Of a stretch of 64,000 nt of DNA, positions 1 through 44,972 are shown piece by piece. The position numbers and the translations under genes were made by a program. The DNA lies in assembly GCF_964195595.1 (NCBI RefSeq), contig NW_027441456.1, positions 680,127 through 744,126 on the forward strand, written 5' to 3'. The notes beneath the pieces are model-generated. The model did no database searches, was not told the DNA's origin, and saw nothing but the letters and a program-made list of their open reading frames with translations. Source of the stretch: Calonectris borealis (Eukaryota). Each line of letters starts with the position of its first letter. Position 1 is the stretch's first letter.

Positions 1-51
1 ATTGGACAAGGGGCACAAGTCCTCAGCCTCTGGAGGCGAATCCTCTCAGGT

Positions 52-792
52 GTGAAGGAAAGGTATCCCTTGAAGGAAGATGTTATATGCCACCCAGGCA
101 AGTGGACCACTATGGAGAGAGGTATCCAGTACCTGAGGGCATTAGCCGTGCTGGAGGTGATTTATGATGACCTGAACAACGAGCAGTTATCCAAAGACCC
201 AGATGAAGTCAAATGCACCCGACCCATGTGGCGGAAGTTTGCACGGAGCGCACCAGCGTCACGTGCCAACTCATTGGCAGTAATGACTTGGAGAGATGGA
301 GAGGAACAAACAGTGGATGAACTGGCTGGCCAACTCCGGCAGTATGAAGAAAGTCTCTCTTCCTCCCTACGGGCCTGTGTCTCTGCTGTGGAGAAACTGT
401 CTCAGGAGGTCCAGCAACTCAAAGAGGATATGTCCTGCTCCCCACCTGCACGGGCCAGTGTCTCAGCCATTAGGAGCAAGCGTCCCTCTGCTCAAGAGAG
501 GACACATCGTGGGTACACACCCTGGGGCACCCTGTGCTTTTACCTGCGTGACCACGGAGAGGACATGAGGCAGTGGAATGGAAAATCTGCCTCAGCCTTA
601 CAGGCACGCGTACATGAGTTGCAAGGAAAAACCACCACAAAAGGGGGTTCTTCCAGGAAAACTGCTGCCCCAGTCTCCAGCAAGCAGTTCCCCAGACAGG
701 GTAGAAGGACTGATTCCACTTCCGACCTTAACAAAGGGACTTCTGATTCACACTTACAAGAAGTGGATAGTGAATATGATGACCAGGACTAG
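52..792 (+). CDS. gag: ERV-A gag (capsid-like C-terminal part; no CCHC zinc knuckle), intact 246-aa ORF ending in TAG
   Basis: The ORF 'MKERYPLKEDVICHPGKWTTMERGIQYLR...DSEYDDQD' lies directly upstream of the protease and is conserved in all three copies. Confidence 0.7.
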   Translation: MKERYPLKEDVICHPGKWTTMERGIQYLRALAVLEVIYDDLNNEQLSKDPDEVKCTRPMWRKFARSAPASRANSLAVMTWRDGEEQTVDELAGQLRQYEESLSSSLRACVSAVEKLSQEVQQLKEDMSCSPPARASVSAIRSKRPSAQERTHRGYTPWGTLCFYLRDHGEDMRQWNGKSASALQARVHELQGKTTTKGGSSRKTAAPVSSKQFPRQGRRTDSTSDLNKGTSDSHLQEVDSEYDDQD

Positions 793-813
793 AGGGGCCC
801 TGCCTCCAGCCAG

Positions 814-1203
814 GTGGAGGAAAGGGACAACCGGGTTTACTGGACTGTGTGGATTCGATGCCCTGGCACATCAGACCCACAGGAGTATAAGGCTCTCGTA
901 GACACCGGTGCACAGTGCACCCTGATGCCATCAGGCTATAAAGGGGCAGAACCCATTTGTATTTCTGGAGTGACAGGGGGATCCCAAGAGTTAACTGTGT
1001 TGGAGGCTGAAGTGAGCCTGACCGGGAAGGAGTGGCAGAAGCACCCCATTGTGACTGGCCCAGGGGCTCCATGCATCCTTGTCATAGACTACCTCAGGAG
1101 AGGGTATTTCAAGGATCCAAAAGTGTACCGGTGGGCTTTTGGTATAGCTGCCCTGGAGACGGAGGAAATCAAACAGCTGTCCACCTTGCCCGGTCTCTCG
1201 TAG
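814..1203 (+). CDS. pro: ERV-A aspartic protease; same frame as gag, separated from it by a single TAG at 790-792 (readthrough configuration)
   Basis: The sequence contains 'ALVDTGAQCTLMP'. The frame stays open from 793 in frame 1, identical to the gag frame. Confidence 0.85.
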   Translation: MEERDNRVYWTVWIRCPGTSDPQEYKALVDTGAQCTLMPSGYKGAEPICISGVTGGSQELTVLEAEVSLTGKEWQKHPIVTGPGAPCILVIDYLRRGYFKDPKVYRWAFGIAALETEEIKQLSTLPGLS

Positions 1204-1215
1204 GATCCTTCTGTT

Positions 1216-3030
1216 GTGGGGTTGTTGAAGGCCAAAGAACAAGTACCAATCGCTACCACAACAGTGCACCGGCGGCAACATCGCATCAACCGAGACTCTC
1301 TGATCCCCATCCATAAGCTGATTCATCGACTGGAGAGCCAAGGAGTGATCAGCAAGACTCGCTCACCCTTTAACAGTCCCATCTGGCCAGTGCGAAAGTC
1401 CGATGGAGAGTGGAGACTAACAGTAGACTACCGTGGCCTGAACGAAGTCACGCCGCCACTGAGTGCTGCCGTGCCGGACATGCTAGAACTTCAATACAAA
1501 CTGGAATCAAAGGCAGCCAAGTGGTACGCCACCATTGATATCGCTAATGCCTACTTCTCCATCCCTTTGGCGGCAGAGTGCAGGCCACAGTTTGCTTTCA
1601 CTTGGAGGGGCATCCAGTACACCTGGAACCGACTGCCCCGGGGGTGGAAACACAGCCCTACCATTTGCCATGGACTGATCCACACCGCACTGGAACAGGG
1701 TGAGGCTCCGGAACACCTGCAATACATTGATGACATCATTGTGTGGGGCAGCACAGCAGAAGAAGTTTTTGAGAAAGGGGAGAGAATAGTCCAAATCCTT
1801 CTGAAGGCCGGCTTTGCCATAAAACAAAGTAAGGTCAAGGGACCTGCACAGGAGATCCAGTTCTTAGGAATAAAATGGCAAGATGGACGTCATCAGATCC
1901 CAATGGATGTGATCAATAAAATAACAGCCATGTCCCCACCAACTAGCAGAAAGGAAACACAAGCTTTCTTAGGCGTGGTGGGATTTTGGAGAATGCATAT
2001 CCCAAATTACAGTCAGATCGTAAGCCCTCTCTATCACGTGACCCGGAAGAAGAACGATTTCAAATGGGGCCCTGAGCAACGACAAGCCTTTGAACAAATT
2101 AAACGGGAGATAGTTCAGGCAGTAGCCCTTGGGCCAGTCCGGGCAGGACAAGATGTAAAGAATGTGCTCTACACCGCAGCCGGGGAGAATGGTCCTACTT
2201 GGAGCCTCTGGCAGAAAGCACCAGGGGAGACTCGAGGTCGACCCTTAGGGTTCTGGAGTCGGGGATACAGAGGATCCGAGGCCCGCTATACTCCAACTGG
2301 GAAGGAGATATTGGCAGCATATGAAGGGGTTCGAGCTGCTTCGGAAGTGGTTGGTACCGAAGCACAGCTCCTCCTGGCACCCCGACTGCCGGTGCTGGGC
2401 TGGATGTTCAAAGGGAGGGTCCCCTCTACACATCATGCAACCGATGCTACGTGGAGTAAGTGGGTCGCACTGATCACACAACGGGCCCGAATAGGAAACC
2501 CCAGTCGCCCAGGAATCTTGGAGGTGATCACGAACTGGCCAGAAGGCAAAGATTTTGGAATATCCCCAGAGGAGGAGGTGATGCGTGCTGAAGAGGCCCC
2601 ACCGTATAACAAACTACCAGAAAATGAGAAGCAATATGCCCTGTTCACTGATGGGTCCTGTCGCCTTGTGGGAAAGCATCAGAGATGGAAGGCTGCGGTA
2701 TGGAGTCCTATACGCCAGGTCGCAGAAACTGCTGAAGGAGAAGGTGAATCGAGTCAGTTTGCAGAGGTGAAAGCCATCCAGCTGGCCTTGGACATTGCTG
2801 AACGAGAAAAATGGCCAGTACTTTATCTCTATACTGCCTCATGGATGGTGGCAAATGCCCTGTGGGGGTGGTTGCAGCAGTGGAAGCAGAACAACTGGCA
2901 GCGCAGAGGTAAACCCATCTGGGCTGCCGCGTTGTGGCAAGATATTGCTGCCCAGGTAGAGAACCTGGTTGTAAAAGTACGTCACGTAGATGCTCATGTA
3001 CCCAAGAGTCAGGCCACTGAAGAACATTAA
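1216..3030 (+). CDS. pol: ERV-A pol: reverse transcriptase + RNase H; same frame as pro after TAG 1201-1203; premature TAA at 3028 relative to copy 2
   Basis: RT motifs 'WRLTVDYRGLN' and 'LQYIDDIIVWG', and RNase H 'ALFTDGSC..TAEGEGESSQFAEVKAIQLAL'. Copy 2 reads through here with 'EHQNNQQVDQAAM'. Confidence 0.9.
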   Translation: MGLLKAKEQVPIATTTVHRRQHRINRDSLIPIHKLIHRLESQGVISKTRSPFNSPIWPVRKSDGEWRLTVDYRGLNEVTPPLSAAVPDMLELQYKLESKAAKWYATIDIANAYFSIPLAAECRPQFAFTWRGIQYTWNRLPRGWKHSPTICHGLIHTALEQGEAPEHLQYIDDIIVWGSTAEEVFEKGERIVQILLKAGFAIKQSKVKGPAQEIQFLGIKWQDGRHQIPMDVINKITAMSPPTSRKETQAFLGVVGFWRMHIPNYSQIVSPLYHVTRKKNDFKWGPEQRQAFEQIKREIVQAVALGPVRAGQDVKNVLYTAAGENGPTWSLWQKAPGETRGRPLGFWSRGYRGSEARYTPTGKEILAAYEGVRAASEVVGTEAQLLLAPRLPVLGWMFKGRVPSTHHATDATWSKWVALITQRARIGNPSRPGILEVITNWPEGKDFGISPEEEVMRAEEAPPYNKLPENEKQYALFTDGSCRLVGKHQRWKAAVWSPIRQVAETAEGEGESSQFAEVKAIQLALDIAEREKWPVLYLYTASWMVANALWGWLQQWKQNNWQRRGKPIWAAALWQDIAAQVENLVVKVRHVDAHVPKSQATEEH

Positions 3031-3042
3031 AACAACAAGGAG

Positions 3043-3678
3043 GTGGACCAGGCTGCTATGATCAAAGTGGCTCAGATAGATCTGGACTGGCAACATAAGG
3101 GTGAATTATTTATAGCTCGGTGGACCCACGACACTTCAGGCCATCAAGGAAGAGACGCAACATATAGATGGGCTCGTGATCGAGGGGTGCACTTGACCAT
3201 GGACACTATTGCACAGGTTATCCATGAATGTGAAACATGCGCTGCAATCAAGCAAGCCAAGCGAGTAAAGCCTCTTTGGTATGGAGGACAATGGTTGAAA
3301 TATAAATATGGGGAGGCTTGGCACATGATTATATCACACTCCCACAAACCCGACAAGGCAAGTGCTATGCTTCTCACACCTGTGGAAGTGACCACAGGAT
3401 GGCTGGAATCATATCCCGTGCCCCATGCCATCGCGTGGAACACCGTCCTGAGCCTTGAAAAGCAAGTCCTATGGCGACATGGCACCCCAGAAAGAATTGA
3501 GTCAGACAACGGGACTCACTTCCGAAACACCCTCATAGACACCTGGGCCAAAGAGCACGGCATTGAGGGGGTCTATCACATCCCCTACCACGCACCAGCC
3601 TCTGGGAAAATCGAACGATACAGCGGGCTGTTAAAGACAACACTGAGAGCAATGGGTGGTGGGACATTCAAGCATTAG
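3043..3678 (+). CDS. pol: ERV-A integrase (HHCC + catalytic core), C-terminus truncated by a stop relative to copy 3
   Basis: Zinc finger 'HDTSGHQGRDATYRW...HECETCAAIK' and core residues '..ESDNGTHF..'. Copy 3 extends to '..QGDLILGENSP'. Confidence 0.85.
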   Translation: MDQAAMIKVAQIDLDWQHKGELFIARWTHDTSGHQGRDATYRWARDRGVHLTMDTIAQVIHECETCAAIKQAKRVKPLWYGGQWLKYKYGEAWHMIISHSHKPDKASAMLLTPVEVTTGWLESYPVPHAIAWNTVLSLEKQVLWRHGTPERIESDNGTHFRNTLIDTWAKEHGIEGVYHIPYHAPASGKIERYSGLLKTTLRAMGGGTFKH

Positions 3679-4401
3679 GACACTCATTTAGCAAAGGCCA
3701 CCTGGTTAGTCAACACCAGGGGATCTTTCAATCGAGCTGGCCCTGCCCAATCAAAACCCTTACGCACTGTAGAGGGGGATAAAGTCCCTGTCGTGCATAA
3801 GAAATATGCTGGGGAAGACAGTCTGGGTTACTCCTGCCTCTGGCAAGGGAAAACCCATCCGTGGGCTTGCTTTTGCTCAAGGACCTGGGTGCGCTTGGTG
3901 GGTGATGCGAAAGGATGGGGAAGTCCGGTGTGTACTTCAAGGGGATTTGATTTTGGGTGAAAATAGCCCATGAACTGGATTGTATGATGTTAGTTACTAT
4001 ATAATACTGTATGTCATCACTTCTATGGTTACTCTATGCCATAGTAACAGTATTACAGTAAGAATCACCCAGGTTAATGTAGGATGAACTCTGATGAAAC
4101 CGAGCAAAGTGCAGCGATGATAGAACCGGACGAGCGCCCAGAACTGGCCTCAGCATGCAAGAGCCCAACACCACACACCATCTCTCCTGCCCTGCAAGAC
4201 TGTTACGACAGGTGGAACCCGAAGTTATGGACTAAATGAACTCAATGGACATTTTAGAGGGATGGCCCATGGATTAAGGTAATAATATCTCTGTGTGTGT
4301 ATATATCAAAAGGCAGGAAAAGTGGTGATGACTAATTGGAATGTATTGGAAAATGTGAGACCTGGGCATGATGTAGATGGTACAGAATAAGGGGTGGATA
4401 T

Positions 4402-4740
4402 TGTCCTGGTTCCAGCTGGGACAGAGTTAACCTTCTTCCCAGTAGCTTGGGGGTGTGCTGTGTTTTGGGTTCGGTGTGAAAGGAGCGTTGATGGCCCATT
4501 GATGCTTTGGCTGTTGCTGGGTGGTGCTTGCACTGGGGGGAGCACAGCCAGGGTGGTGGACCCAGCTGGCCAAGGGGGTATTCTATACCATGTGACATCA
4601 TGCTCAGTATAAAAACCAGGTGTGTGGGGGGGCTCGCCCCCCGTTCGTGACACGCGGTCGGCGAGCAGTTGCATTGTGCATCGCCTGCTTTGTATATTCT
4701 GTTACTGTTGTTGTTCTCATTGCTATTATTACTGTTCTAC
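4402..4740 (+). mobile_element. ERV-A 3' LTR (family LTR-A), ~340 bp; diverges from the 5' LTR after 'ttactgttctac' (truncated or chimeric U5 end)
   Basis: It starts 'tgtcctggttccagctgggacagagttaacc', has TATA 'tataaaaacc' at ~4607, and matches the 5' LTRs at 20135 and 42034 for ~340 bp. Confidence 0.85.
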
Positions 4741-5955: not shown

Positions 5956-5962
5956 GATAAAT
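5956..5962 (+). promoter_or_regulatory. TATA-like box (GATAAAT) ~55 bp upstream of the candidate gene ATG, copy 1
   Basis: 'gggataaatcggcccc' at 5953-5968, followed by a 5'UTR-like run and the ATG at 6016. Confidence 0.4.
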
Positions 5963-6015
5963 CGGCCCCTCACCTTCTCCAGCTTCACCCAGCACTCACC
6001 ACACTACAGAGAAAG

Positions 6016-20134: not shown

Positions 20135-20634
20135 TGTCCTGGTTCCGGCTGGGACAGAGTTAACCTTCTTCCCAGTAGCTTGGCGGGTGTGCTGTGTTTT
20201 GGGTTTGGTGTGAAAGGAGCGCTGATGGCCCATTGATGCTTTGGCTGTTGCTGGGTGGTGCTTGCACTGGGGGGAGCACAGCCAGAGTGGTGGACCCAGC
20301 TGGCCAATGGGGTATTCTATACCATGTGACATCATGCTCAGTATAAAAACCAGGTGTGTGGGGGGGCTCGCCCCCTCGTTCGTGACACGTGGTTGGCGGT
20401 CGGTGAGCAGTTGCATTGTGCATCGCCTGCTTTGTATATTCTGTTATTGTTGTTGTTCTCAGTGTTATTCTTACTGTTCTACTTCGTTTTATTTCAAGTA
20501 TTAAACTGTTTTTATCTCAACCCAGGAGTTTTCCTACTTGTGCCCTCCCAATTCTCTCCCCCATCCCACTGGAGGACTGGGGGGGAGGTGAGCGAGTGGC
20601 TGCATGTGGTTTATTTGCTGACGACAGTCCTTTT
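20135..20634 (+). mobile_element. ERV-A 5' LTR (LTR-A, 500 bp) copy 2
   Basis: 'tgtcctggttccggctgggacagagttaacc...tataaaaacc...attaaactg...ctcaacccaggagttttcc...gacagtcctttt' lies immediately 5' of the PBS. Confidence 0.85.
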
Positions 20635-20652
20635 TGGCGCCCAACATGGGGC
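20635..20652 (+). other. Primer-binding site, tRNA-Lys1,2 type (17/18 match to TGGCGCCCAACGTGGGGC)
   Basis: 'tggcgcccaacatggggc' lies directly after the LTR end; the same sequence is at 42534-42551. Confidence 0.7.
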
Positions 20653-20972
20653 AGCGAAGGGTTGAGATAACAACAGATTAATTAGAGCATATTAAGGAAT
20701 TTATATCTGGTAACATATTAATTTGTTCTGCACCATGCTCTTGTTTTTACTGTACCTGTTAAAGATTGGAGTTGGGTTTTGTAGTCTGCTGTGCTCTGCA
20801 GTGATTAATGATGTTTTGCCTGGGAGATTTGTTACTAAAACGCTGGCATTGGGGGTTATTTGGTATTTGGGATTTGTAATGAAGCTGTTACTATATTTCA
20901 GGTACCACCTCATGGAGACCGTTAGCAATTATACCTTTTCCTCTGAGAGATTTTTTATGGAGGAAGTAGAGA

Positions 20973-21714
20973 ATGGCACCCTCACTACCTTCCTCTATGA
21001 TGTCGTCTCCTTTTGTTAAAATAACTTGTCAGTACCTTGAACATCCCTGGGTAGTTAAGGTACATCTATTGGTACTCCTTGGGAATATTGTTGTGGTTTT
21101 ATCCAAGGTTAGTAAGCAATTTAAGAATGTCATCCAGAGATCTGCCCCAAGGCTGAATAGTTATGAGTGGCAGGGCGAGTGGGATAGCATGGGCAAATGC
21201 CTGGGACGGTGGGCACCCCCAGTGTTCTGGAACTTCACCCCTGAGCAAGTGCAGAATCCTGAAGAATTAGTAGATTATTTGGAAGAAGTATGCTGTCACC
21301 CTGGCCATCCTAGGGAGACACAAATCACTACAATGTGCTGGGGCCTGGCCCATGCCTACCGAGCCCTGTTTAACACCACTCAGAACCCCCAAGGGGAAGA
21401 AAAGGTCGCTGCAGCTGATGACAAAGCAACAGGCCCTGCGTCTCTACCGCACCCCCCAGGGCAAGCACAGCGGCTCCCCACCCCCCACAGCAGGCACGGC
21501 AGCTACTCCGCCCCCTGCGACAGAGAACCAACCCATGCCGGTATCAGTCGCCCCTATACAAAAAAGAAAATGCACAAGAAAATCAGCTCGTCTAGTAAGG
21601 GATGAAGATGAACCAGGGCCATCACGAGAACAGGAGGAGGAGGAGGAGGCGGAACCTGTAAATGAGATGGTGACCACCCGATCCCTATCCCTGAGTGAGC
21701 TGCAAGATATGTGA
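20973..21714 (+). pseudogene. gag: ERV-A gag N-terminal region copy 2 (frameshifted; continuous in copy 3)
   Basis: ORFs at 20973-21605 and 21352-21714 match the copy-3 ORF at 42622-43422. An extra T near 21015 breaks the frame. Confidence 0.6.
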
Positions 21715-21909
21715 AAAGACTTCAGTTGTCGTCCAGGCGAGCACATTGTCACCTGGCTGCTCCGATGCTGGGATAACGGGGCCAGTAGCCTGGAATTAGA
21801 GGGTAGGGGAGCCAAGCAGCTGGGATCCCTTTCTAGGGAAGGGGGCATTGACAAAGCAATTGGACAAGGGGCACAAGTCCTCAGCCTCTGGAGGCGAATC
21901 CTCTCAGGT

Positions 21910-22649
21910 GTGAAGGAAAGGTATTCCTTCAAGGAAGATGTTATATGCCACCCAGGCAAGTGGACCACTATGGAGAGAGGTATCCAGTACCTGAGGGAAT
22001 TAGCTGTGCTGGAGGTGATTTATGATGACCTGAACAACGAGCAGTTATCCAAAGACCCAGATGAAGTCAAATGCACCCGACCCATGTGGCGGAAGTTTGT
22101 ACGGAGCGCACCAGCGTCACACGCAAACTCATTGGCAGTAATGACCTGGAGAGATGGAGAGGAACAAACAGTGGATGAACTGGCTGGCCAACTCCGGCAA
22201 TATGAAGAAAGTCTCTCTTCCTCCCTACGGGCTGTGTCTCTGCTGTGGAGAAACTGTCTCAGGAGGTCCAGCAACTCAAAGAGGATATGTCCTGCTCCCC
22301 ACCTGCACGGGCCAGCATCTCAGCCATTAGGAGCAAGCGTCCCTCTGCTCAAGAGAGGACACATCGTGGGTACACACCCCGGGGCACCCTGTGCTTTTAC
22401 CTGCGTGACCACGGAGAGGACATGAGGCAGTGGGATGGAAAATCTGCCTCAGCCTTACAGGCACGCGTACATGAGTTGCAAGGAAAAACAACCACAAAAG
22501 GGGGTTCTTCCAGGAAAACTGCTGCCCCAGTCTCCAACGAGCAGTTCCCCAGACAGGGTAGAAGGACTGATTCCACTTCCGACCTTAACAAAGGGACTTC
22601 TGATTCACACTTACAAGAAGTGGATAGTGAATATGATGACCAGGACTAG
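21910..22649 (+). pseudogene. gag: ERV-A gag (capsid-like) copy 2, frameshift at ~22230
   Basis: ORFs at 21910-22425 and 22245-22649 together match the copy-1 gag at 52-792. Confidence 0.8.
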
Positions 22650-22670
22650 AGGGGCCCTGCCTCCAGCCAG

Positions 22671-23030
22671 GTGGAGGAAAGGGACAACCGGGTTTACTGG
22701 ACTGTGTGGATTCAATGCCCTGGCACATCAGACCCACAGGAGTATAAGGCTCTCGTAGACACCGGTGCACAGTGTACCCTGATGCTATCAAGCTATAAAG
22801 GGGCAGAACCCATTTGTATTTCTGGAGTGACAGGGGGATCCCAAGAGTTAACTGTGTTGGAGGCCGAAGGGAGCCTAACCGGGAAGGAGTGGCAGAAGCA
22901 CCCCATTGTGACTGGCCCAGAGGCTCCGTGCATCCTTGTCATAGACTATCTCAGCAGAGGGTATTTCAAGGATCCAAAAGTGTACCAGTGGGCTTTTGGT
23001 ATAGCTGCCCTGGAGACGGAGGAAATTTAA
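22671..23030 (+). CDS. pro: ERV-A protease copy 2 (same frame as gag after TAG; 9-bp insertion creates TAA before pol)
   Basis: 'ALVDTGAQCTLMLSSYKG..'; the insertion 'tttaaacaa' at ~23027 is absent from copies 1 and 3. Confidence 0.8.
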   Translation: MEERDNRVYWTVWIQCPGTSDPQEYKALVDTGAQCTLMLSSYKGAEPICISGVTGGSQELTVLEAEGSLTGKEWQKHPIVTGPEAPCILVIDYLSRGYFKDPKVYQWAFGIAALETEEI

Positions 23031-23081
23031 ACAATTAAACAGCTGTCCACCTTGCCCGGTCTCTCGTAGGATCCTTCTGTT

Positions 23082-25259
23082 GTGGGGTTGTTGAAGGCCA
23101 AAGAACAACAGGTACCAATCGCTACCACAACAGTGCACCGGCGGCAATATCGCATCAACCGAGACTCTCTGATCCCCATCCATGAGCTGATTCGTCGACT
23201 GGAGAGCCAAGGAGTGATCAGCAAGACTCGCTCACCCTTTAACAGTCCCATCTGGCCAGTGCGAAAGTCCAATGGAGAGTGGAGACTAACAGTAGACTAC
23301 CGTGGCCTGAACGAAGTCACGCCGCCACTGAGTGCTGCCGTGCCGGACATGCTGGAACTTCAATACGAACTGGAATCAAAGGCAGCCAAGTGGTACGCCA
23401 CAATTGACATTGCTAATGCCGTCTTCTCCATCCCTTTGGCGGCAGAGTGCAGGCCACACTTTGCTTTCACTTGGAGGGGCATCCAGTACACCTGGAACCG
23501 ACTGCCCCAGGGGTGGAAACACAGCCCTACCATTTGCCATGGACTGATCCACACCGCACTGGAACAGGGTGAGGCTCCCAAACACCTGCAATACATCGAT
23601 GACATCATCGTGTGGGGCAGCACAGCAGAAGAAGTTTTTGAGAAAGGGGAGAGAATAGTCCAAATCCTTCTGAAGGCCGGCTTTGCCATAAAACGAAGTA
23701 AGGTCAAGGGACCTGCACAGGAGATCCAGTTCTTAGGAATAAAATGGCAAGATGGACGTCATCAGATCCCAATGGATGTGATCAATAAAATAACAGCCAT
23801 GTCCCCACCAACTAGCAGAAAGGAAACACAAGCTTTCTTAGGCGTGGTGGGGTTTTGGAGAATGCATATCCCAAATTACAGTCAGATCGTAAGCCCTCTC
23901 TATCACGTGACCAGGAAGAAGAACGACTTCAGATGGGGCCCTGAGCAACGACAAGCCTTTGAACAAATTAAACGGGAGATAGTTCAGGCAGTAGCCCTTG
24001 GGCCAGTCTGGGCAGGACAAGATGTAAAGAATGTGCTCTACACCGCAGCCGGGGAGAATGGTCCTACTTGGAGCCTCTGGCAGAAAGCACCAGGGGAGAC
24101 TCGAGGTCGACCCTTAGGGTTTTGGAGTCGGGGATACAGAGGATCCGAGGCCCGCTATACTCCAACTGGGAAGGAGATATTGGCAGCATATGAAGGGGTT
24201 CAAGCTGCTTCGGAAGTGGTTGGTACTGAAGCACAGCTCCTCCTGGCACCCCGACTGCCGGTGCTGGGCTGGATGTTCAAAGGGAGGGTCCCCTCCACAC
24301 ATCATGCAACCGATGCTAGGTGGAGTAAGTGGGTCGCACTGATCACACAACGGGCCCGAATAGGAAACCCCAGTCGCCCAGGAATCTTGGAGGTGATCAC
24401 GAACTGGCCAGAAGGCAAAGATTTCGGAATATCCCCAGAGGAGGAGGTGATGCGTGCTGAAGAGGCCCCACCGTATAACAAACTACCAGAAAACGAGAAG
24501 CAATATGCCCTGTTCACGGATGGGTCCTGTCGCCTTGTGGGAAAGCATCAGAGATGGAAGGCTGCGGTATGGAGTCCTATACGCCAAGTTGCAGAAACTG
24601 CTGAAGGAGAAGGTGAATCGAGCCAGTTTGCAGAGGTGAAAGCCATCCAGCTGGCCTTGGGCATTGCCGAACGAGGAAAATGGCCAGTACTTTATCTCTA
24701 TACTGCCTCATGGATGGTGGCAAATGCCCTGTGGGGGTGGTTGCAGCAGTGGAAGCAGAACAACTGGCAGCGCAGAGGTAAACCCATCCGGGCTGCCGCA
24801 TTGTGGCAAGATATTGCTGCCCGAGTAGAGAACCTGACTGTAAAAGTACATCACGTAGATGCTCACGTACCCAAGAGTCGGGCCACTGAGGAACATCAAA
24901 ACAACCAGCAGGTGGACCAGGCTGCTATGATCGAAGTAGCTCAGATAGATCTGGACTGGCAACATAAGGGTGAATTATTTATAGCTCGGTGGACCCACGA
25001 CACTTCAGGCCATCAAGGAAGAGACGCAACATATAGATGGGCTCGTGATCGAGGGGTGGACTTGACCATGGACACTATTGCACAGGTTATCCATGAATGT
25101 GAAACATGCGCTGCAATCAAGCAAGCCAAGCGAGTAAAGCCTCTTTGGTATGGAGGACGATGGTTGAAAGATAAATATGGGAGGCTTGGCACATTGATTA
25201 TATCACACTCCCACAAACCCGACAAGGCAAGTGCTATGCTCTCACCGTGGTGGAAGTAA
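23082..25259 (+). CDS. pol: ERV-A pol copy 2: uninterrupted 725-aa ORF covering RT, RNase H and integrase N-terminus/core (most intact pol in window)
   Basis: 'YIDDIIVWG', RNase H and the integrase HHCC finger are all in one frame. A frameshift near 25250 separates the remaining integrase C-terminus (25247-25546). Confidence 0.9.
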   Translation: MGLLKAKEQQVPIATTTVHRRQYRINRDSLIPIHELIRRLESQGVISKTRSPFNSPIWPVRKSNGEWRLTVDYRGLNEVTPPLSAAVPDMLELQYELESKAAKWYATIDIANAVFSIPLAAECRPHFAFTWRGIQYTWNRLPQGWKHSPTICHGLIHTALEQGEAPKHLQYIDDIIVWGSTAEEVFEKGERIVQILLKAGFAIKRSKVKGPAQEIQFLGIKWQDGRHQIPMDVINKITAMSPPTSRKETQAFLGVVGFWRMHIPNYSQIVSPLYHVTRKKNDFRWGPEQRQAFEQIKREIVQAVALGPVWAGQDVKNVLYTAAGENGPTWSLWQKAPGETRGRPLGFWSRGYRGSEARYTPTGKEILAAYEGVQAASEVVGTEAQLLLAPRLPVLGWMFKGRVPSTHHATDARWSKWVALITQRARIGNPSRPGILEVITNWPEGKDFGISPEEEVMRAEEAPPYNKLPENEKQYALFTDGSCRLVGKHQRWKAAVWSPIRQVAETAEGEGESSQFAEVKAIQLALGIAERGKWPVLYLYTASWMVANALWGWLQQWKQNNWQRRGKPIRAAALWQDIAARVENLTVKVHHVDAHVPKSRATEEHQNNQQVDQAAMIEVAQIDLDWQHKGELFIARWTHDTSGHQGRDATYRWARDRGVDLTMDTIAQVIHECETCAAIKQAKRVKPLWYGGRWLKDKYGRLGTLIISHSHKPDKASAMLSPWWK

Positions 25260-26271
25260 CCACAGGATGGCTGGAATCATATCCCGTGCCCCATGCCATC
25301 GCCTGGAACACCGTCCTGAGCCTTGAAAAGCAAGTCCTATGGCGACATGGCACCCCAGAAAGAATTGAGTCAGACAACGGGACTCATTTCCAAAACACCC
25401 TCATAGACACCTGGGCCAAAGAGCACGGCATTGAGTGGGTCTATCACATCCCCTACCATGCACCAGCCTCTGGGAAAATCGAACGATACAACGGGCTGCT
25501 AAAGACAACACTGAGGGCAATGGGCGGTGGGACATTCAAGCATTAGGACACTCATTTAGCAAAGGCCACCTGGTTAGTCAACACCAGGGGATCTTTCAAT
25601 CGAGCTGGCCCTGCCCAATCCAAACTCTTACGCACTGTAGAGGGGGATAAAGTCCCTGTCGTGCACATAAGAAACATGCTGGGGAAGACAGTCTGGGTTA
25701 CTCCTGCCTCTGGCAAGGGAAAACCCATCCGTGGGATTGCTTTTGCTCAAGGACCTGGGTGCGCTTGGTGGGTGATGCGAAAGGATGGGCAAGTCCGGTG
25801 TGTACCTCAAGGGGATTTAATTCTGGGTGAAAATAGCCCATGAACTGGATTGTATGATGTTAGTTACTATATAATACTGTATGTCATCACTTCTATGGTT
25901 ACTCTATGCCATATTAACAGTATTACAGTAAGAATCAGCCAGGTTAATGTAGGATGAACTCTGATGAAACCGAGCAAAGTGCAACGATGATAGAACCGGA
26001 CGAGCGCCCAGAACTGGCCTCAGCATGCAAGAGCCCAACACCACACACCATCTCTCCTGCCCTGAAAGACTGTTATGGCAGATGGAACCCGAACTCATGG
26101 ACTAAATGAACTCAACGGACATTTTAGAGGGATGGCCCGTGGACTAAGGGAATGATATCTCTGTGTGTGTATATATCAAAAGGCAGGAAAAGTGGTGATG
26201 ACTAATTGGAATGTATTGGAAAATGTGAGACCTGGGCATGATGTAGATGGTACAGAATAAGGGGTGGATAT

Positions 26272-26610
26272 TGTCCTGGTTCCAGCTGGGACAGAGTTAG
26301 CTTTCTTCCCAGTAGCTTGGGGGTGTGCTGTGTTTTGGGTTCGGTGTGAAAGGAGCGTTGATGGCCCATTGATGCTTTGGCTGTTGCTGGGTGGTGCTTG
26401 CACTGGGGGGAGCACAGCCAGGGTGGTGGACCCAGCTGGCCAAGGGGGTATTCTATACCATGTGACATCATGCTCAGTATAAAAACCAGGTGTGGGGGGG
26501 GGCTCGCCCCCCGTTCGTGACACGCGGTCGGCGAGCAGTTGCATTGTGCATCGCCTGCTTTGTATATTCTGTTACTGTTGTTGTTCTCATTGCTATTATT
26601 ACTGTTCTAC
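26272..26610 (+). mobile_element. ERV-A 3' LTR copy 2 (truncated at the same point as copy 1)
   Basis: It matches 4402-4740 and differs from the 5' LTR at 20135 at ~17 of 340 positions. Confidence 0.85.
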
Positions 26611-41600: not shown

Positions 41601-42621
41601 CAGGCAAACCTCCCACTGACTTCAAAACCTAAACCAGATCTTCACCACCAGCCTTTGATTCCCAGCTTGTGTTTCATAAAAATAAATTATCCTCACATCC
41701 TCATAGACAGAGGACTAAAATAAAGCACTATTTTACTTTCAGTAACGGTGATTGGGAAGCACAGCGTGGTAGCTTGAATTACTGTGGCACATAACAAAGA
41801 GAGGATGAGTTTACAGGGGAACGTGCCAGCCTTATGAAGTATTCATGGATCCGGTATGTGCTGCATCTCCTGATTGAGACCTTACTCACCCTGTCTCCTC
41901 CCAGTTCTAGCTCACACCACCAGTAAAAATGCTGGTCTTCTCAAGATGCAGAAATAAATAAATATCTGTCCTGTTATCTATCTCTTCTGATAGTTGTGGG
42001 CGTCTACCGGGAGGCAAAACAGGGGTGCCTGAGTGTCCTGGTTCCGGCTGGGACAGAGTTAACCTTCTTCCCAGTAGCTTGGCGGGTGTGCTGTGTTTTG
42101 GGTTTGGTGTGAAAGGAGCGCTGATGGCCCATTGATGCTTTGGCTGTTGCTGGGTGGTGCTTGCACTGGGGGGAGCACAGCCAGAGTGGTGGACCCAGCT
42201 GGCCAATGGGGTATTCTATACCATGTGACATCATGCTCAGTATAAAAACCAGGTGTGTGGGGGGGCTCGCCCCCTCGTTCGTGACACGTGGTTGGCGGTC
42301 GGTGAGCAGTTGCATTGTGCATCGCCTGCTTTGTATATTCTGTTATTGTTGTTGTTCTCAGTGTTATTCTTACTGTTCTACTTCGTTTTATTTCAATTAT
42401 TAAACTGTTTTTATCTCAACCCAGGAGTTTTCCTACTTGTGCCCTCCCAATTCTCTCCCCCATCCCACTGGAGGAGGGGGGGGGAGGTGAGCGAGTGGCT
42501 GCATGTGGTTTATTTGCTGACGACAGTCCTTTTTGGCGCCCAACATGGGGCAGCGAAGGGTTGAGATAACAACAGATTAATTAGAGCATATTAAGGAATT
42601 TATATCTGGTAACATATTAAT

Positions 42622-43422
42622 TTGTTCTGCACCATGCTCTTGTTTTTACTGTACCTGTTAAAGATTGGAGTTGGGTTTTGTAGTCTGCTGTGCTCTGCAG
42701 TGATTAATGATGTTTTGCCTGGGAGATTTGTTACTAAAACGCTGGCATTGGGGGTTATTTGGTATTTGGGATTTGTAATGAAGCTGTTACTATATTTCAG
42801 GTACCACCTCATGGAGACCGTTAGCAATTATACCTTTTCCTCTGAGAGATTTTTTATGGAGGAAGTAGAGAATGGCACCCTCACTACCTTCCTCTATGAT
42901 GTCGTCTCCTTTGTTAAAATAACTTGTCAGTACCTTGAACATCCCTGGGTAGTTAAGGTACATCTATTGGTACTCCTTGGGAATATTGTTATGGTTTTAT
43001 CCAAGGTTAGTAAGCAATTTAAGAACGTCATCCAGAGATCTGCCCCAAGGCTGGATAGTTATGAGTGGCAGGGCGAGTGGGATAGCATGGGCAAATGCCT
43101 AGGGCGATGGGCACCCCCAGTGTTCTGGAACTTCACCCCTGAACAAGTGCAGAATCCTGAAAAATTAGTAGAATATTTGGAAGAAGTATGCTGTCACCCT
43201 GGCCATCCTAGGGAGACGCAAATCACTGCAATGTGCTGGGGCCTGGCCCATGCCTACCGAGCCCTGTTTAACACCACTCAGAACCCCCAAGGGGAAGGAA
43301 AGGTCGCTGCAGCTGATGACAAAGCAACAGGCCCTGCGTCTCTACCGCACCCCCCACGGCAAGCACAGCAGCCCCCCCACCCCCCACAGCAGGCACGGCA
43401 GCTACTCCGCCCCCTGCGATAG
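42622..43422 (+). CDS. gag: ERV-A gag N-terminal (matrix-like / Pro-rich) region, 266-aa open frame in copy 3
   Basis: ORF '..METVSNYTFSSERFFMEEVENGTL...QNPQGEGKVAAADDKATGPASLPHPP..'; the same sequence is frameshifted in copy 2. Confidence 0.55.
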   Translation: MFCTMLLFLLYLLKIGVGFCSLLCSAVINDVLPGRFVTKTLALGVIWYLGFVMKLLLYFRYHLMETVSNYTFSSERFFMEEVENGTLTTFLYDVVSFVKITCQYLEHPWVVKVHLLVLLGNIVMVLSKVSKQFKNVIQRSAPRLDSYEWQGEWDSMGKCLGRWAPPVFWNFTPEQVQNPEKLVEYLEEVCCHPGHPRETQITAMCWGLAHAYRALFNTTQNPQGEGKVAAADDKATGPASLPHPPRQAQQPPHPPQQARQLLRPLR

Positions 43423-43808
43423 AGAACCAACCCATGCCGGTATCAGTCGCCCCTATACAAAAAAGAAAATGCACAAGAAAATCAGCTCGTCTAGTAAGGG
43501 ATGAAGATGAACCAGGGCCATCACGAGAACAGGAGGAGGAGGAGGAGGCGGAACCTGTAAATGAGATGGTGACCACCCGATCCCTATCCCTGGGTGAGCT
43601 GCAAGATATGTGAAAAGACTTCAGTTGTCGTCCAGGCGAGCACATTGTCACCTGGCTGCTCCGATGCTGGGATAACGGGGCCAGTAGCCTGGAATTAGAG
43701 GGTAGGGGAGCCAAGCAGCTGGGATCCCTTTCTAGGGAAGGGGGCATTGACAAAGCAATTGGACAAGGGGCACAAGTCCTCAGCCTCTGGAGGCGAATCC
43801 TCTCAGGT

Positions 43809-44549
43809 GTGAAGGAAAGGTATCCCTTCAAGGAAGATGTTATATGCCACCCAGGCAACTGGACCACCATGGAGAGAGGTATCCAGTACCTGAGGGAATT
43901 AGCCGTGCTGGAAGTGATTTATGATGACCTGAACAACAAGCAGTTATCCAAAGACCCAGATGAAGTCAAATGCACCCGACCCATGTGGCGGAAGTTTGTA
44001 CGGAGGGCACCAGCGTCACGTGCCAACTCATTGGCCATAATGACCTGGAGAGATGGAGAGGAACAAACAGTGGATGAACTGGCTGGCCAACTCCGGCAGT
44101 ATGAAGAAAGTCTCTCTTCCTCCCTACGGGCCTGTGTCTCTGCTGTGGAGAAACTGTCTCAGGAGGTCCAGCAACTCAAAGAGGATATGTCCTGCTCCCC
44201 ACCTGCACGGGCCAGTGTCTCAGCCATTAGGAGCAAGCGGCCCTCTGCTCAAGAGAGGACACATCGTGGGTACACACCCCGGGGCACCCTGTGCTTTTAC
44301 CTGCGTGACCACGGAGAGGACATGAGGCAGTGGGATGGAAAATCTGCCTCAGCCTTACAGGCACGCGTACATGAGTTGCAAGGAAAAACAACCACAAAAG
44401 GGGGTTCTTCCGGGAAAACTGCTGCCCCAGTCTCCAGCGAGCAGTTCCCCAGACAGGGTAGAAGGACTGATTCCACTTCCGACCTTAACAAAGGGACTTC
44501 TGATTCACACTTACAAGAAGTGGATAGTGAATATGATGACCAGGACTAG
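43809..44549 (+). CDS. gag: ERV-A gag (capsid-like) copy 3, intact 246 aa, terminated by TAG followed in-frame by protease
   Basis: 'MKERYPFKEDVICHPGNWTTMERGIQYLRELAVLEV..DSEYDDQD'. Confidence 0.7.
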   Translation: MKERYPFKEDVICHPGNWTTMERGIQYLRELAVLEVIYDDLNNKQLSKDPDEVKCTRPMWRKFVRRAPASRANSLAIMTWRDGEEQTVDELAGQLRQYEESLSSSLRACVSAVEKLSQEVQQLKEDMSCSPPARASVSAIRSKRPSAQERTHRGYTPRGTLCFYLRDHGEDMRQWDGKSASALQARVHELQGKTTTKGGSSGKTAAPVSSEQFPRQGRRTDSTSDLNKGTSDSHLQEVDSEYDDQD

Positions 44550-44570
44550 AGGGGCCCTGCCTCCAGCCAG

Positions 44571-44960
44571 GTGGAGGAAAGGGACAACCGGGTTTACTGG
44601 ACTGTGTGGATTCAATGGCCTGGCACATCAGACCCACAGGAATATAAGGCTCTCGTAGACACCGGAGCACAGTGTACCCTGATGCCACCAGGCTATAAAG
44701 GGGCAGAACCCATTTGTATTTCTGGAGTGACAGGGGGATCCCAAGAGTTAACTGTATTGGAGGCCGAAGGGAGCCTGACCGGGAATGAGTGGCAGAAGCA
44801 CCCCATTGTGACTGGCCCAGGGGCTCCGTGCATCCTTGTCATAGACTACCTCAGGAGAGGGTATTTCAAGGATCCAAAAGTGTACCAGTGGGCTTTTGGT
44901 ATAGCTGCCCTGGAGACGGAGGAAATCAAACAGCTGTCCACCTTGCCCGGTCTCTCGTAG
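44571..44960 (+). CDS. pro: ERV-A protease copy 3
   Basis: 'ALVDTGAQCTLMPPGYKG'; same frame as gag and pol. Confidence 0.85.
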   Translation: MEERDNRVYWTVWIQWPGTSDPQEYKALVDTGAQCTLMPPGYKGAEPICISGVTGGSQELTVLEAEGSLTGNEWQKHPIVTGPGAPCILVIDYLRRGYFKDPKVYQWAFGIAALETEEIKQLSTLPGLS

Positions 44961-44972
44961 GATCCTTCTGTT

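What the first reader, a model, noticed from the sequence alone, without database searches (positions are those of the whole stretch)
52..3678. ERV-A encodes gag, pro and pol in one reading frame separated by two in-frame UAG codons; Lys1,2 PBS, no gag zinc knuckle, no env
In all three copies gag, protease and pol sit in the same frame (frame 1 in copy 1, frame 0 in copies 2 and 3). They are separated only by TAG at 790-792 ('gaccaggacTAGaggggccctgcc') and TAG at 1201-1203 ('ctctcgTAGgatcc').

This implies translational readthrough rather than frameshifting, a strategy typical of gamma/epsilon-like retroviruses. The first context ends in the GAC-UAG arrangement recalled from MLV. However, the PBS is the Lys1,2 type ('tggcgcccaacatggggc') and the gag C-terminus has no CCHC motif, features more usual in class III/spuma-like elements. 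Only ~430 bp separate the integrase from the 3' LTR, so env is absent. This combination is unusual and the family may be poorly described.
Basis: partly seen in the sequence, partly recalled or inferred. Interest (0 to 1): 0.6.

Follow-up and report, generated by a model that had tools for sequence, protein, structure and literature searches.

The report
Bird retrovirus fossil, one real stop
This is a decayed copy of a widespread bird endogenous retrovirus in which only the first UAG (between gag and protease) is a genuine, conserved read-through stop, while the second UAG is an ordinary inactivating mutation.

Summary
However, the three copies are units of one 21.9-kb tandem duplication, so they count as one witness.

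I compared 89 other loci of the same family from many birds.
- **First stop:** the codon is TAG in 66 of 76 loci. At least five proviruses are fully open, with gag of about 650 codons, UAG, then pro-pol of about 1,060 codons in the same frame.
- **Downstream RNA:** a conserved stem-loop follows the stop. It shows compensatory base changes and suppressed synonymous variation, and its loop can pair 50 nt downstream, giving an MLV-like pseudoknot.
- **Second stop:** none of the 89 loci has a stop there (GAG 65, GAA 15). It is a private GAG>TAG mutation that predates the duplication, alongside other shared lesions.

[quoted passage not shown] An in-frame gag stop with no zinc knuckle is already described for class III (XtERV-S, Ovex1). 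"Double readthrough" is refuted and single readthrough is supported. Interest is modest. The candidate pseudoknot and a conserved membrane-like N-terminal Gag domain are the new points.

The parts
1..789 (+). Copy 1: C-terminal 263 codons of gag (the 5' part lies beyond the window start)
   Evidence: tblastn of the Grus gag, residues 389-648, matches 1-789 at 68% identity. No CCHC motif.
790..792 (+). Copy 1: UAG-1, the ancestral gag/pro boundary stop and inferred readthrough site
   Evidence: TAG in 66 of 76 related loci, always in frame with pro-pol.
798..826 (+). Copy 1: conserved stem-loop S1 after UAG-1. CCCU/AGGG pairs with CCUCC/GGAGG around the loop A-GCCAGG-U.
   Evidence: RNAalifold. 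Compensatory changes at three pairs and 96.9% of cells paired. It is the MFE structure. Synonymous variation is 0.10-0.16 against a 0.38 mean.
862..867 (+). Copy 1: CCUGGC, complementary to the S1 loop GCCAGG (809-814). This is the candidate pseudoknot or kissing stem S2.
   Evidence: 95.2% of cells paired and one compensatory G-C>A-U change (L007). Synonymous sites of the Pro codon are invariant. Inferred, not proven.
793..1200 (+). Copy 1: protease (LVDTGA), with a damaging Gly>Val change in ILGIDYL
   Evidence: Relatives read ILGIDYL.
1201..1203 (+). Copy 1: UAG-2, a private nonsense mutation (GAG>TAG) inside the continuous pro-pol ORF
   Evidence: 0 of 89 related loci have a stop here; relatives read LSEDPS.
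1204..3973 (+). Copy 1: RT (DYRGLN, YIDD), tether, RNase H and integrase. Carries TAA 3028, TAG 3676, integrase-core indels and a frameshift near 3800. The true pol stop is TGA 3971-3973.
4402..4740 (+). Copy 1: 3' LTR, truncated after 339 bp. The polypurine tract lies at about 4384-4400.
20135..20626 (+). Copy 2: 5' LTR (TGTCC...CGACA, 492 bp)
   Evidence: The ends were fixed using the solo LTR and the Grus LTRs.
20635..20652 (+). Copy 2: tRNA-Lys1,2 primer binding site (one CpG>CpA change), 8 nt after the LTR
20735..22649 (+). Copy 2: gag (start ATG 20735; frameshifts and TGA at 21712), ending in UAG-1 at 22647-22649
22650..25843 (+). Copy 2: pro-pol with TAA 23028, UAG-2 at 23067-23069 and a frameshift near 25181
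26272..26610 (+). Copy 2: truncated 3' LTR
42034..42525 (+). Copy 3: 5' LTR
   Evidence: offset 21899 from copy 2.
42534..42551 (+). Copy 3: Lys1,2 PBS
42634..44549 (+). Copy 3: gag. The N-terminal hydrophobic domain is open for 200 codons and stops follow later. Ends in UAG-1 at 44547-44549.
44550..47732 (+). Copy 3: pro-pol in a single frame, 1,060 codons, interrupted only by UAG-2 (44958-44960) and TGA 45990
48161..48507 (+). Copy 3: truncated 3' LTR
53391..53894 (+). Solo LTR of the same family, flanked by the 5-bp target-site duplication CCTGC

Best explanation
ERV-A is an old, inactivated provirus that was later copied three times by a 21.9-kb tandem segmental duplication. [quoted passage not shown]

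In functional members the genome is:
- LTR (TGT...ACA, 5-bp target duplication), a 6-8 nt spacer, then a tRNA-Lys1,2 PBS.
- gag of about 650 codons, with a hydrophobic N-terminal domain and no zinc knuckle.
- A single UAG.
- pro-pol of about 1,060 codons in the same frame (PR, RT, RNase H, IN; no dUTPase).
- About 400 nt, the polypurine tract, then the LTR.

Gag is made by termination at the UAG. Gag-Pro-Pol is made when a fraction of ribosomes decode the UAG as a sense codon. This is inferred to be stimulated by the purine-rich spacer and a conserved GC-rich stem-loop that begins 5-10 nt downstream. The stem-loop's 6-nt loop probably pairs with CCUGGC about 50 nt further on. That gives an H-type pseudoknot or kissing complex with a single-A first loop, as in the MLV signal.

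The second UAG in the window is not part of this strategy. It is a GAG>TAG nonsense mutation fixed in this one insertion before the duplication. Other shared lesions arose in the same period: protease G>V, RNase H catalytic D>A, and a gag TGA.
For: **Shown**
- *Duplication.* Self-alignment gives 97.9% and 96.2% identity between the units. 5' and 3' LTRs are 92.8-94.5% identical, so the insertion is older than the duplication.
- *Relatives.* Homologous pol ORFs at 80-91% identity come from Grus, Anas, Corvus, Manacus, Hirundo, Amazona, owls and others. They read LSEDPS, LSQDPS or LSDDPS through the UAG-2 position.
- *Intact reference.* The Grus provirus L001 has 100% identical LTRs, an exact Lys1,2 PBS, a 648-codon gag, TAG, a 1,061-codon pro-pol in frame, and 394 nt from the pol stop to the LTR.
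- *Family-wide counts.* The UAG-1 codon is TAG in 66, TAA in 2 and other in 8 of 76 loci. The UAG-2 codon is never a stop in 89 loci.
- *Openness.* Five proviruses (L001, L002, L004, L005, L007) are open for 600 or more codons upstream and about 1,060 codons downstream of UAG-1, in the same frame. The other two frames upstream are closed.
- *No separate start for Pol.* The first in-frame ATG after UAG-1 (MPS...) lies downstream of the protease DTG. Independent initiation could not make an active protease.
- *RNA element S1.* Nine pairs, 96.9% of cells paired, with compensatory changes at 16:29 (UA>CG, 3 sequences), 17:28 (CG>UA, 2) and 18:27 (CG>UA, 3).
- *RNA element S2.* Six pairs, 95.2% of cells paired, with one GC>AU change.
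- *Controls for S1 plus S2.* 0 of 500 shuffles reach the covariation score of 0.094. Slid controls score 0.028-0.061.
- *Synonymous sites.* The synonymous-difference fraction is 0.10-0.16 in codons 1-11 after the stop, against a 0.38 mean. It is 0.00 at the Pro codon in the S2 3' arm.
- *Where conservation starts.* The gag C-terminus upstream of the stop is highly divergent. Conservation begins at the stop.
- *Shared lesions.* All three window copies carry ILVIDYL, YTASW and UAG-2; the gag TGA is seen in copies 2 and 3 (that part of gag lies outside the window in copy 1).
- *Class III traits.* RT motifs DYRGLN and YIDD (said to be typical of ERV-L in PMC8278194). The best solved integrase match is PFV (62.9 bits, against about 31 for HIV/HTLV). 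RT matches foamy PR-RT at 172 bits and XMRV/MLV at 165, against HIV at 63. LTR ends are TGT...ACA with 5-bp TSDs. There is no dUTPase and no Pfam gag or zinc-finger domain.

**Inferred**
- That readthrough actually occurs.
- That the structure stimulates it.
Against: - No experiment shows readthrough.
- The thermodynamic z-scores of the region are unremarkable (-0.73 and -1.24), as expected for GC-rich coding sequence.
- S2 rests on one compensatory change (L007) plus conservation.
- A second hairpin at alignment columns 59-92 shows only wobble-compatible changes.
- With the lower stem formed, the spacer is 5 nt, shorter than the 8 nt of MLV.
- No Rfam family matches, including the gammaretroviral gag/pol knots.
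- One fetched relative (L003, duck-like) has TGG at the stop position, though it also has a frameshift in protease.
- Placement in class III rests on motifs, pairwise scores and source-given names (ENS-3, Fv1-like). I could not build a tree with reference ERV-L or ENS-3 sequences.
Confidence: 0.85

Rival explanations
1. Double programmed readthrough. The family expresses Gag, Gag-Pro and Gag-Pro-Pol by suppressing two successive in-frame UAG codons, a readthrough analogue of the betaretroviral double frameshift.
For: Both TAGs are present in all three window copies. The second lies near the protease/RT boundary. Its hexanucleotide UAGGAU is among the leaky "type III" contexts listed in PMC13517186.
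Against: The three copies descend from one insertion. None of 89 independent loci has a stop at that codon. All intact relatives have one continuous pro-pol ORF. There is no structure signal downstream of UAG-2 (z = -0.03). The window copies share several other lethal lesions.
Confidence: 0.02
2. UAG-1 really terminates Gag, and Pro-Pol is made by another route. Candidates are a spliced pol mRNA as in foamy viruses, internal or non-AUG initiation, or termination-reinitiation. The conserved sequence after the stop would then serve another purpose, such as a splice acceptor, a packaging signal or the protease N-terminus.
For: pol and integrase are most similar to foamy viruses, and foamy viruses express Pol from its own mRNA. 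Gag lacks the MHR and zinc knuckle, as foamy Gag does. Readthrough has not been measured.
Against: gag and pro-pol are always in the same frame, separated by exactly one stop with no overlap. The stop is UAG in 66 of the 68 loci that have a stop at that position, and never UGA. No ATG lies between the stop and the protease active site; the first is after DTG. Synonymous-site suppression and paired synonymous changes fit an RNA helix 5-10 nt after the stop, which is the geometry of known readthrough stimulators (PMC13517186).
Confidence: 0.1
3. Both stops are chance nonsense mutations in a dead element, and the apparent conservation of UAG-1 reflects copying of a defective master.
For: The window copies carry many random stops. 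Most metagenome copies are decayed.
Against: UAG-1 is present in lineages whose gag proteins are only 36-50% identical and whose pol is 58-91% identical. These include proviruses that are otherwise completely open and have identical LTRs. A defective master could not have sustained transposition across bird orders.
Confidence: 0.03

Closest known systems
ERV-L (class III: MuERV-L / HERV-L) and the chicken ENS-3/Soprano family that the literature places as its sister
   Same: - Env-less LTR-gag-pro-pol-LTR layout, with pro and pol in one frame.
- Gag without a Cys-His box.
- RT motifs DYRxLN and YIDD.
- LTR ends TGT...ACA with a 5-bp target duplication.
- One family member's pol is named "pol-like protein ENS-3" and one gag "Fv1-like" by their sources. 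Fv1 derives from an ERV-L gag (own knowledge).
- ENS-3 is placed next to ERV-L in PMC12067270, and in the aviervIII clade in PMC3482500.
   Different: - No dUTPase after integrase.
- The PBS is Lys1,2, not Leu.
- No recognisable MHR.
- Gag carries an N-terminal hydrophobic domain.
- ENS-1/3 is described as Galliformes-specific, whereas this family is in Neoaves and Anseriformes.
- I could not align it directly with ENS-3 or MuERV-L sequences.
XtERV-S, class III ERV of Xenopus (PMC8278194)
   Same: gag and pro-pol are in the same frame, separated by one in-frame stop that is interpreted as readthrough. Gag has no zinc knuckle. The RT motifs DYRGLN and YIDD are identical. LTR ends are TGT/ACA.
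   Different: XtERV-S uses UGA, has an env, a dUTPase, a tRNA-Ser PBS and an MHR. No downstream RNA structure was described for it.
Gammaretroviral gag-pol readthrough signal (MoMLV UAG plus H-type pseudoknot)
   Same: - The stop is UAG and lies upstream of the protease DTG, in the same frame.
- A purine-rich spacer follows the stop.
- A GC-rich stem 1 is followed by a loop that pairs downstream.
- The first loop is a single A.
- A long second loop connects the two stems.
- Some lineages have the exact UAGGGA hexanucleotide (L005).
   Different: - No sequence similarity and no match to Rfam knots.
- The spacer is 5 or 10 nt, not 8.
- The connecting loop is 35 nt, not 18.
- Stem 2 may be a loop-loop kiss with a second hairpin.
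- Gag lacks a nucleocapsid knuckle.
- pol is not gammaretroviral.
Spumaretroviruses (foamy viruses)
   Same: tRNA-Lys1,2 PBS. Gag without a zinc knuckle and without an MHR. The closest solved integrase and PR-RT structures are foamy.
   Different: Foamy Pol is translated from its own spliced mRNA in a different frame, the RT motif is YVDD, and they have env and accessory genes. Here gag and pol are collinear with a single UAG and there is no env.
Ovex1 (chicken/zebra finch, PMC2717909)
   Same: An avian retroviral locus with gag-pro-pol in one frame, presumed stop-codon suppression, and no zinc finger in Gag.
   Different: Ovex1 is a single-copy domesticated locus with a third ORF, degenerate LTRs and no PBS. 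That paper states it is not similar to ENS-3 or GGERV-L.

Membership tests
Class III ERV (ERV-L-like / ERV3) | RT and IN group with ERV-L and spumaviruses rather than with class I or class II | tested here: inconclusive
   For RT, the foamy PR-RT match (172 bits) is about equal to XMRV/MLV (165), and both far exceed HIV (63). For IN, PFV scores 62.9 bits against about 31 for others. No tree with ERV-L references could be built. The nearest non-avian relatives (caecilian, bichir, turtles; 33-41% identity) carry no family names.
Class III ERV (ERV-L-like / ERV3) | RT motifs DYRxLN and YIDD (given as ERV-L-typical in PMC8278194) | tested here: met
   LTVDYRGLNEV and LQYIDDIIVWG are present in the window and in relatives.
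Class III ERV (ERV-L-like / ERV3) | LTR termini TGT...ACA and a 5-bp target-site duplication | tested here: met
   The solo LTR 53391-53894 reads TGTAC...CGATA and is flanked by CCTGC/CCTGC. The Grus provirus reads TGTCC...CGACA and is flanked by AAGGC/AAGGC. The 5-bp rule for ERV3 comes from my own knowledge of Repbase conventions.
Class III ERV (ERV-L-like / ERV3) | Gag without a Cys-His zinc knuckle | tested here: met
   No CX2CX4HX4C motif in the Grus gag or in seven full-length relatives. No zf-CCHC hit in Pfam.
ERV-L sensu stricto (MuERV-L/HERV-L) | dUTPase domain after integrase | tested here: not met
   Pfam scan of the intact 1,061-aa pro-pol finds only RVP, RVT_1, RT_RNaseH, RNase_H, Integrase_H2C2 and rve. 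pol ends about 130 aa after the integrase core.
ERV-L sensu stricto (MuERV-L/HERV-L) | tRNA-Leu primer binding site | tested here: not met
   The PBS is an exact 18-nt tRNA-Lys1,2 complement in L001, L003, L006, L007 and L009. CpG-decayed versions occur elsewhere, including the window.
ERV-L sensu stricto (MuERV-L/HERV-L) | Absence of env | tested here: met
   394-428 nt without an ORF lie between the pol stop and the 3' LTR, both in the intact Grus copy and in the window.
ENS-3/Soprano (chicken) | Sequence similarity of pol and gag (ERNI) to the chicken reference | not testable with these tools
   No chicken ENS-3 or ERNI sequence could be retrieved. The only link is a source-given name, "pol-like protein ENS-3 [Grus japonensis]", for hit P0086. 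ERNI did not appear among the top 120 gag hits.
Retroviruses with gag-pol stop-codon readthrough (gamma/epsilon type strategy) | gag and pro-pol in the same frame, separated by a single conserved stop | tested here: met
   TAG in 66 of 76 loci. Five or more proviruses are open on both sides in one frame.
Retroviruses with gag-pol stop-codon readthrough (gamma/epsilon type strategy) | Conserved stimulatory RNA structure a few nucleotides downstream | tested here: met
   S1 is supported by three covarying pairs and by synonymous-site suppression. The pseudoknot stem S2 is only suggestive, with one covarying pair.
Retroviruses with gag-pol stop-codon readthrough (gamma/epsilon type strategy) | Measured readthrough producing a Gag-Pol fusion | not testable with these tools
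   This needs a reporter assay or proteomics.
Gammaretrovirus gag/pol pseudoknot (Rfam GP_knot families) | Match to the covariance model | tested here: not met
   cmscan of 700-1300 at E<=10 gives no hit to any Rfam family.
Betaretrovirus-like three-ORF layout (gag / pro / pol as separate units) | A conserved second recoding site between pro and pol | tested here: not met
   None of 89 loci has a stop or frame change at the pro/RT junction.

The most novel reading that the evidence does not exclude
This bird class III ERV family would be the first class III lineage with a defined recoding signal. The signal would be a UAG followed by an MLV-like stem-loop and pseudoknot (or a loop-loop kiss between two hairpins). 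That would show that structure-stimulated gag-pol readthrough is not confined to gamma- and epsilon-like retroviruses.

In addition, its Gag is anchored by a conserved N-terminal polytopic membrane domain of about 190 aa. This could be an adaptation of an env-less element to intracellular, membrane-associated assembly, analogous to the ER-targeted Gag of mouse IAP elements but built differently. Copies with identical LTRs and fully open frames (Grus japonensis) suggest the family may still be active.
Probability: 0.4. Interest if true: 0.5.

Novelty: new member of a known kind. Interest (0 to 1): 0.3.

Why it matters
- **For genome annotation.** A stop shared by several nearby ERV copies is not evidence of a coding strategy when the copies come from a segmental duplication. 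Independent insertions settle the question at once.
- **For retrovirology.** A large, partly intact bird family with a class III pol, a foamy-type PBS and a gammaretrovirus-type gag-UAG-pol junction is useful material. Its covarying downstream helix helps in tracing how recoding signals evolve across retroviral classes. The 2026 review of animal-virus readthrough (PMC13517186) lists no class III example.
- **For cell biology.** If the membrane-like N-terminal Gag domain is real, it bears on how env-less elements assemble inside cells.
- **For databases.** Gag ORFs of this family are widely mislabelled "ubiquitin carboxyl-terminal hydrolase 4".

Tried and rejected
- AlphaFold2 of a full-length Gag with a 12-sequence alignment gave mean pLDDT 37. 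It was unusable, so no fold search was run and no claim about a capsid fold is made.
- A profile search of Gag against PDB sequences found 0 hits at E<=10. Pfam found only noise. Gag therefore remains an orphan by sequence.
- A regex search found no MHR, late domain, GQR box or Gly2.
- Rfam found nothing at the junction.
- The IMG/VR viral contigs hold no relative.
- The exhaustive HMMER search with pol, followed by cluster name look-up, was meant to recover named ERV-L/ENS-3 references. It returned only fragments of the same family and unnamed ERVs from a caecilian, a bichir and turtles.
- The last homology search, seeded with a goose gag to reach chicken ERNI, found no ERNI in the top 120.
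- The supplement of Bolisetty et al. that gives the aviervIII frameshift pattern is not held.
- I considered and rejected a compact pseudoknot formed by CCUG/CAGG plus CCUCC/GGAGG. Its loops would be 0-1 nt, and the extended S1 explains the covariation better.
- I considered that the similarity of "aacaggggtg" upstream of the 5' LTR to the polypurine tract might indicate tandem proviruses. The flanks do not otherwise match, so I dropped this.

Full report
**1. What is in the window**

The window is a tandem segmental duplication with a period of about 21.9 kb. Region 1-30823 aligns with 21859-52684 at 97.9% identity. Region 1-8921 aligns with 43758-52684 at 96.2%.

- Copy 1 is cut by the window start.
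- Copy 2 spans 5' LTR 20135-20626, PBS 20635-20652, gag from ATG 20735, TAG 22647, pro-pol to 25843, and a truncated 3' LTR at 26272-26610.
- Copy 3 is offset from copy 2 by 21,899 bp.
- The 5' and 3' LTRs are only 92.8-94.5% identical, while the duplicated units are 96-98% identical. The provirus therefore inserted first and the block was duplicated later.

The three copies are one witness, not three.

**2. Check of the observation**

Both TAG codons sit where stated, in the stated contexts, in all three copies. Translation in one frame gives the gag C-terminus, a stop, protease (LVDTGA), a stop, then RT (DYRGLN, YIDD), RNase H and integrase.

- The PBS is the tRNA-Lys1,2 complement with one CpG>CpA change.
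- gag has no CCHC motif.
- pol ends at TGA 3971-3973 and the 3' LTR begins at 4402, leaving 428 nt and no env.

- Copy-specific lesions are TAA 3028, TAA 23028, TGA 45990 and several frameshifts. TAG 3676 is shared by copies 1 and 2 but not copy 3.
- Lesions shared by all three copies are UAG-2, Gly>Val in the protease ILGIDYL motif, and Asp>Ala in the RNase H YTDSW motif. A gag CGA>TGA change at 21712 is seen in copies 2 and 3; that part of gag lies outside the window in copy 1.

**3. Independent copies**

A protein search with the RT-RNase H ORF found hundreds of bird proteins at 70-91% identity. Hosts include cranes, ducks, crows, manakins, swallows, parrots, owls, storks and auks. The long hits are about 1,017-aa ORFs that start at the first Met after the protease active site. 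They read ...STLPGLSEDPSVVGLL... straight through the position of the second TAG.

I fetched the DNA of nine such loci and a further 80 from metagenome contigs that are largely bird host DNA.

- At the UAG-2 position, none of the 89 loci has a stop: GAG 65, GAA 15, GAT 3, AAG 3, and GTG, TTT and GCG once each.
- At the UAG-1 position, of 76 loci, 66 have TAG, 2 have TAA and 8 have another codon, mostly in decayed or misregistered copies.

The Grus japonensis locus L001 is an intact, evidently young provirus. It has:
- identical LTRs, with a 139-bp internal duplication in the 3' one;
- a 5-bp target duplication (AAGGC) and an exact Lys1,2 PBS;
- a gag of 648 codons, then TAG, then a pro-pol of 1,061 codons in the same frame;
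- 394 nt between the pol stop and the 3' LTR.

Four more proviruses (Manacus L002, metagenome contig L004, Oenanthe L005, Patagioenas L007) are likewise open for 600-671 codons before the TAG and 1,059-1,064 codons after it, in one frame. The other two frames upstream are closed within a few codons.

**4. The two stops are different things**

UAG-2 is a private GAG>TAG mutation of this one insertion. It was inherited by the duplicated copies together with other lethal changes.

UAG-1 is ancestral and universal in the family. It persists although the gag C-terminus just upstream has diverged beyond recognition between lineages. It persists although gag as a whole is only 36-68% identical, where pol is 80-91%. 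The codon before it varies among GAC, GAT, AAA, GCT, CAT, AAT and GAA, so the "GAC-UAG" resemblance to MLV has no significance.

**5. How Pro-Pol is most likely made**

Several facts leave stop-codon readthrough as the simplest mechanism:
- gag and pro-pol are collinear, in frame and separated by one UAG.
- There is no overlap that would allow a frameshift.
- The first in-frame ATG after the stop lies beyond the protease DTG.

Directly after the stop the nucleotide sequence is far more conserved than coding alone requires. In the alignment, columns 1-3 are the UAG.

- RNAalifold predicts a bipartite helix. Columns 9-12 (CCCU) pair with 34-37 (AGGG), and columns 14-18 (CCUCC) pair with 27-31 (GGAGG), around an 8-nt loop A-GCCAGG-U.
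- On 69 sequences, three of the nine pairs show compensatory double changes: U-A>C-G, C-G>U-A and C-G>U-A. The latter fall partly at paired synonymous sites (TCC>TCT with GTG>GTA).
- C>U changes opposite G keep wobble pairs. Overall 96.9% of cells pair.
- The loop GCCAGG is complementary to an invariant CCUGGC at columns 73-78. One lineage (L007) changes both G20>A and C78>U.
- For S1 plus S2, none of 500 shuffles reaches the observed covariation score of 0.094. Shifting the partners gives 0.028-0.061.
- The fraction of synonymous differences among 16 diverse copies is 0.10-0.16 over codons 1-11 after the stop, against a 0.38 average. It is 0.00 at the Pro codon in the downstream arm.

The geometry parallels the MoMLV signal as summarised in PMC13517186: a purine-rich spacer, a GC-rich stem 1, a single-A first loop, stem 2 formed by the hairpin loop, and a long connecting loop. 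The details differ. The spacer is 5 or 10 nt rather than 8, and the connecting loop is 35 nt. The downstream arm may itself sit in the loop of a second hairpin, which would make the contact a loop-loop kiss. That second hairpin shows no compensatory change.

No Rfam family matches, and the folding energies are not exceptional. S1 is well supported. S2 is suggestive. Actual readthrough is inferred.

**6. What family it is**

Several features place the family in class III, near ERV-L:
- The pol carries the RT motifs DYRGLN and YIDD. PMC8278194 gives these as typical of class III ERV-L, in contrast to foamy viruses and MLV.
- The closest solved integrase is PFV (62.9 bits, against about 31 for lentiviral and deltaretroviral integrases).
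- RT matches foamy PR-RT and XMRV/MLV RT about equally (172 and 165 bits), far above HIV (63 bits).
- LTRs end TGT...ACA, and two insertions show 5-bp target duplications.
- Gag has no zinc knuckle and there is no env.

Names given by sources point the same way. One family pol is called "pol-like protein ENS-3" and one gag "Friend virus susceptibility protein 1-like". The literature places chicken ENS-3/Soprano as sister to ERV-L (PMC12067270) and within the avian class III clade aviervIII together with Birddawg (PMC3482500).

It is not ERV-L in the strict sense. It has no dUTPase, the PBS is Lys1,2 rather than Leu, and no MHR is recognisable. I could not obtain reference ERV-L or ENS-3 sequences, so no tree was built. 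The nearest non-avian pol proteins (33-41% identity) come from a caecilian, a bichir and turtles, and carry no family names.

**7. How unusual it is**

An in-frame stop between gag and pro-pol, together with a knuckle-less Gag, has been published for the class III frog element XtERV-S (UGA; PMC8278194). It has also been published for chicken Ovex1 (PMC2717909). Lack of env is the norm for ERV-L. The Lys1,2 PBS is the foamy-virus primer.

The combination is thus a new member of a known kind, not a new strategy. What I did not find described:
- a conserved, covarying RNA element after the stop in a class III ERV; the 2026 readthrough review lists only gamma, epsilon, SnRV, SSSV, ZFERV and RMEV;
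- the Gag N-terminal domain described in section 8.

**8. Seen in passing**

Gag in all full-length family members begins with about 190 residues that contain three or more hydrophobic segments of transmembrane strength. After these come a conserved FENFEYPW...GWHGVW...FTPEQ block, a Pro/Thr/Ala-rich linker, and the conserved core. Window copy 3 keeps this domain open for 200 codons. It has no Pfam or PDB relative, and structure prediction failed. Its function is unknown. Membrane anchoring of an env-less element's Gag is my speculation.

**9. Verdict**

This is one decayed provirus copied three times. It has one genuine readthrough stop of a known type and one ordinary nonsense mutation.

Noticed in passing
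window 42634-43233 (copy 3) and 20735-21015 (copy 2); L001 2922-3480: Gag begins with a conserved hydrophobic domain of about 190 aa. It has three or more Kyte-Doolittle segments above 1.6 and occurs in all full-length family members (45-70% identical). It has no Pfam or PDB relative. Gag has no Gly2 and no MHR.
   Followed up: partly
window 1-52684: The ERV sits in a tandem segmental duplication of at least three 21.9-kb units, 96-98% identical. The array starts beyond the window and ends at 52684. Each unit also holds a second, unrelated ERV pol (27-41% identity) at 14936-16679 and 36830-38573.
   Followed up: partly
window 53386-53899: A solo LTR of the same family (53391-53894, 92% identical to the 5' LTRs), flanked by a perfect 5-bp target-site duplication CCTGC.
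   Followed up: yes
window 20627-20634 and 42526-42533; 16 related loci: The PBS does not follow the LTR after the usual 2 nt. A 6-8 nt A/T-rich spacer (GTCCTTTT here) separates ...ACA from TGGCGCCC in every copy examined.
   Followed up: partly
window 4740-8000 (and 26610-30000, 48507-52000): The 3' LTR breaks off after about 340 bp. A GC-rich stretch (59-60% GC) follows, with strongly negative GC skew at 6000-8000. I did not determine what interrupted the LTR.
   Followed up: no
L001 (Grus japonensis BAAFJT010000040.1, 64.64 Mb): A fully intact provirus with 100% identical LTRs apart from a 139-bp tandem duplication in the 3' LTR. Its 8-nt LTR-PBS spacer AAGGCTTT equals the 3' flank (TSD AAGGC plus TTT), an unexplained coincidence. 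The family may still be active in cranes.
   Followed up: partly
proteins P0139, P0152, P0156, P0231, P0422 and many Grus/Mycteria/Limosa gag ORFs: Chimeric gene models fuse USP4 (in hawks and barn owl) or AMFR (in parrots) exons to this ERV's gag. The name "ubiquitin carboxyl-terminal hydrolase 4" has since spread to plain gag ORFs in other bird annotations.
   Followed up: no
loci L010-L089 (JGI Ga0065711); protein P0419: A JGI "metagenome" contains hundreds of copies of this bird ERV, so it is largely host DNA. A gag fragment is also deposited under Klebsiella pneumoniae, which is presumably contamination.
   Followed up: no
window 1201-1206: The private second stop happens to sit in the hexanucleotide UAGGAU, one of the leaky "type III" contexts listed in PMC13517186. 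There is no structure downstream (z = -0.03) and no conservation.
   Followed up: yes
L003 37-39 (ENA ERZ27259979): A duck-like copy has TGG instead of the gag stop, which would fuse gag to pro-pol. The same copy has a 2-nt insertion in protease, so it is probably just decayed.
   Followed up: partly
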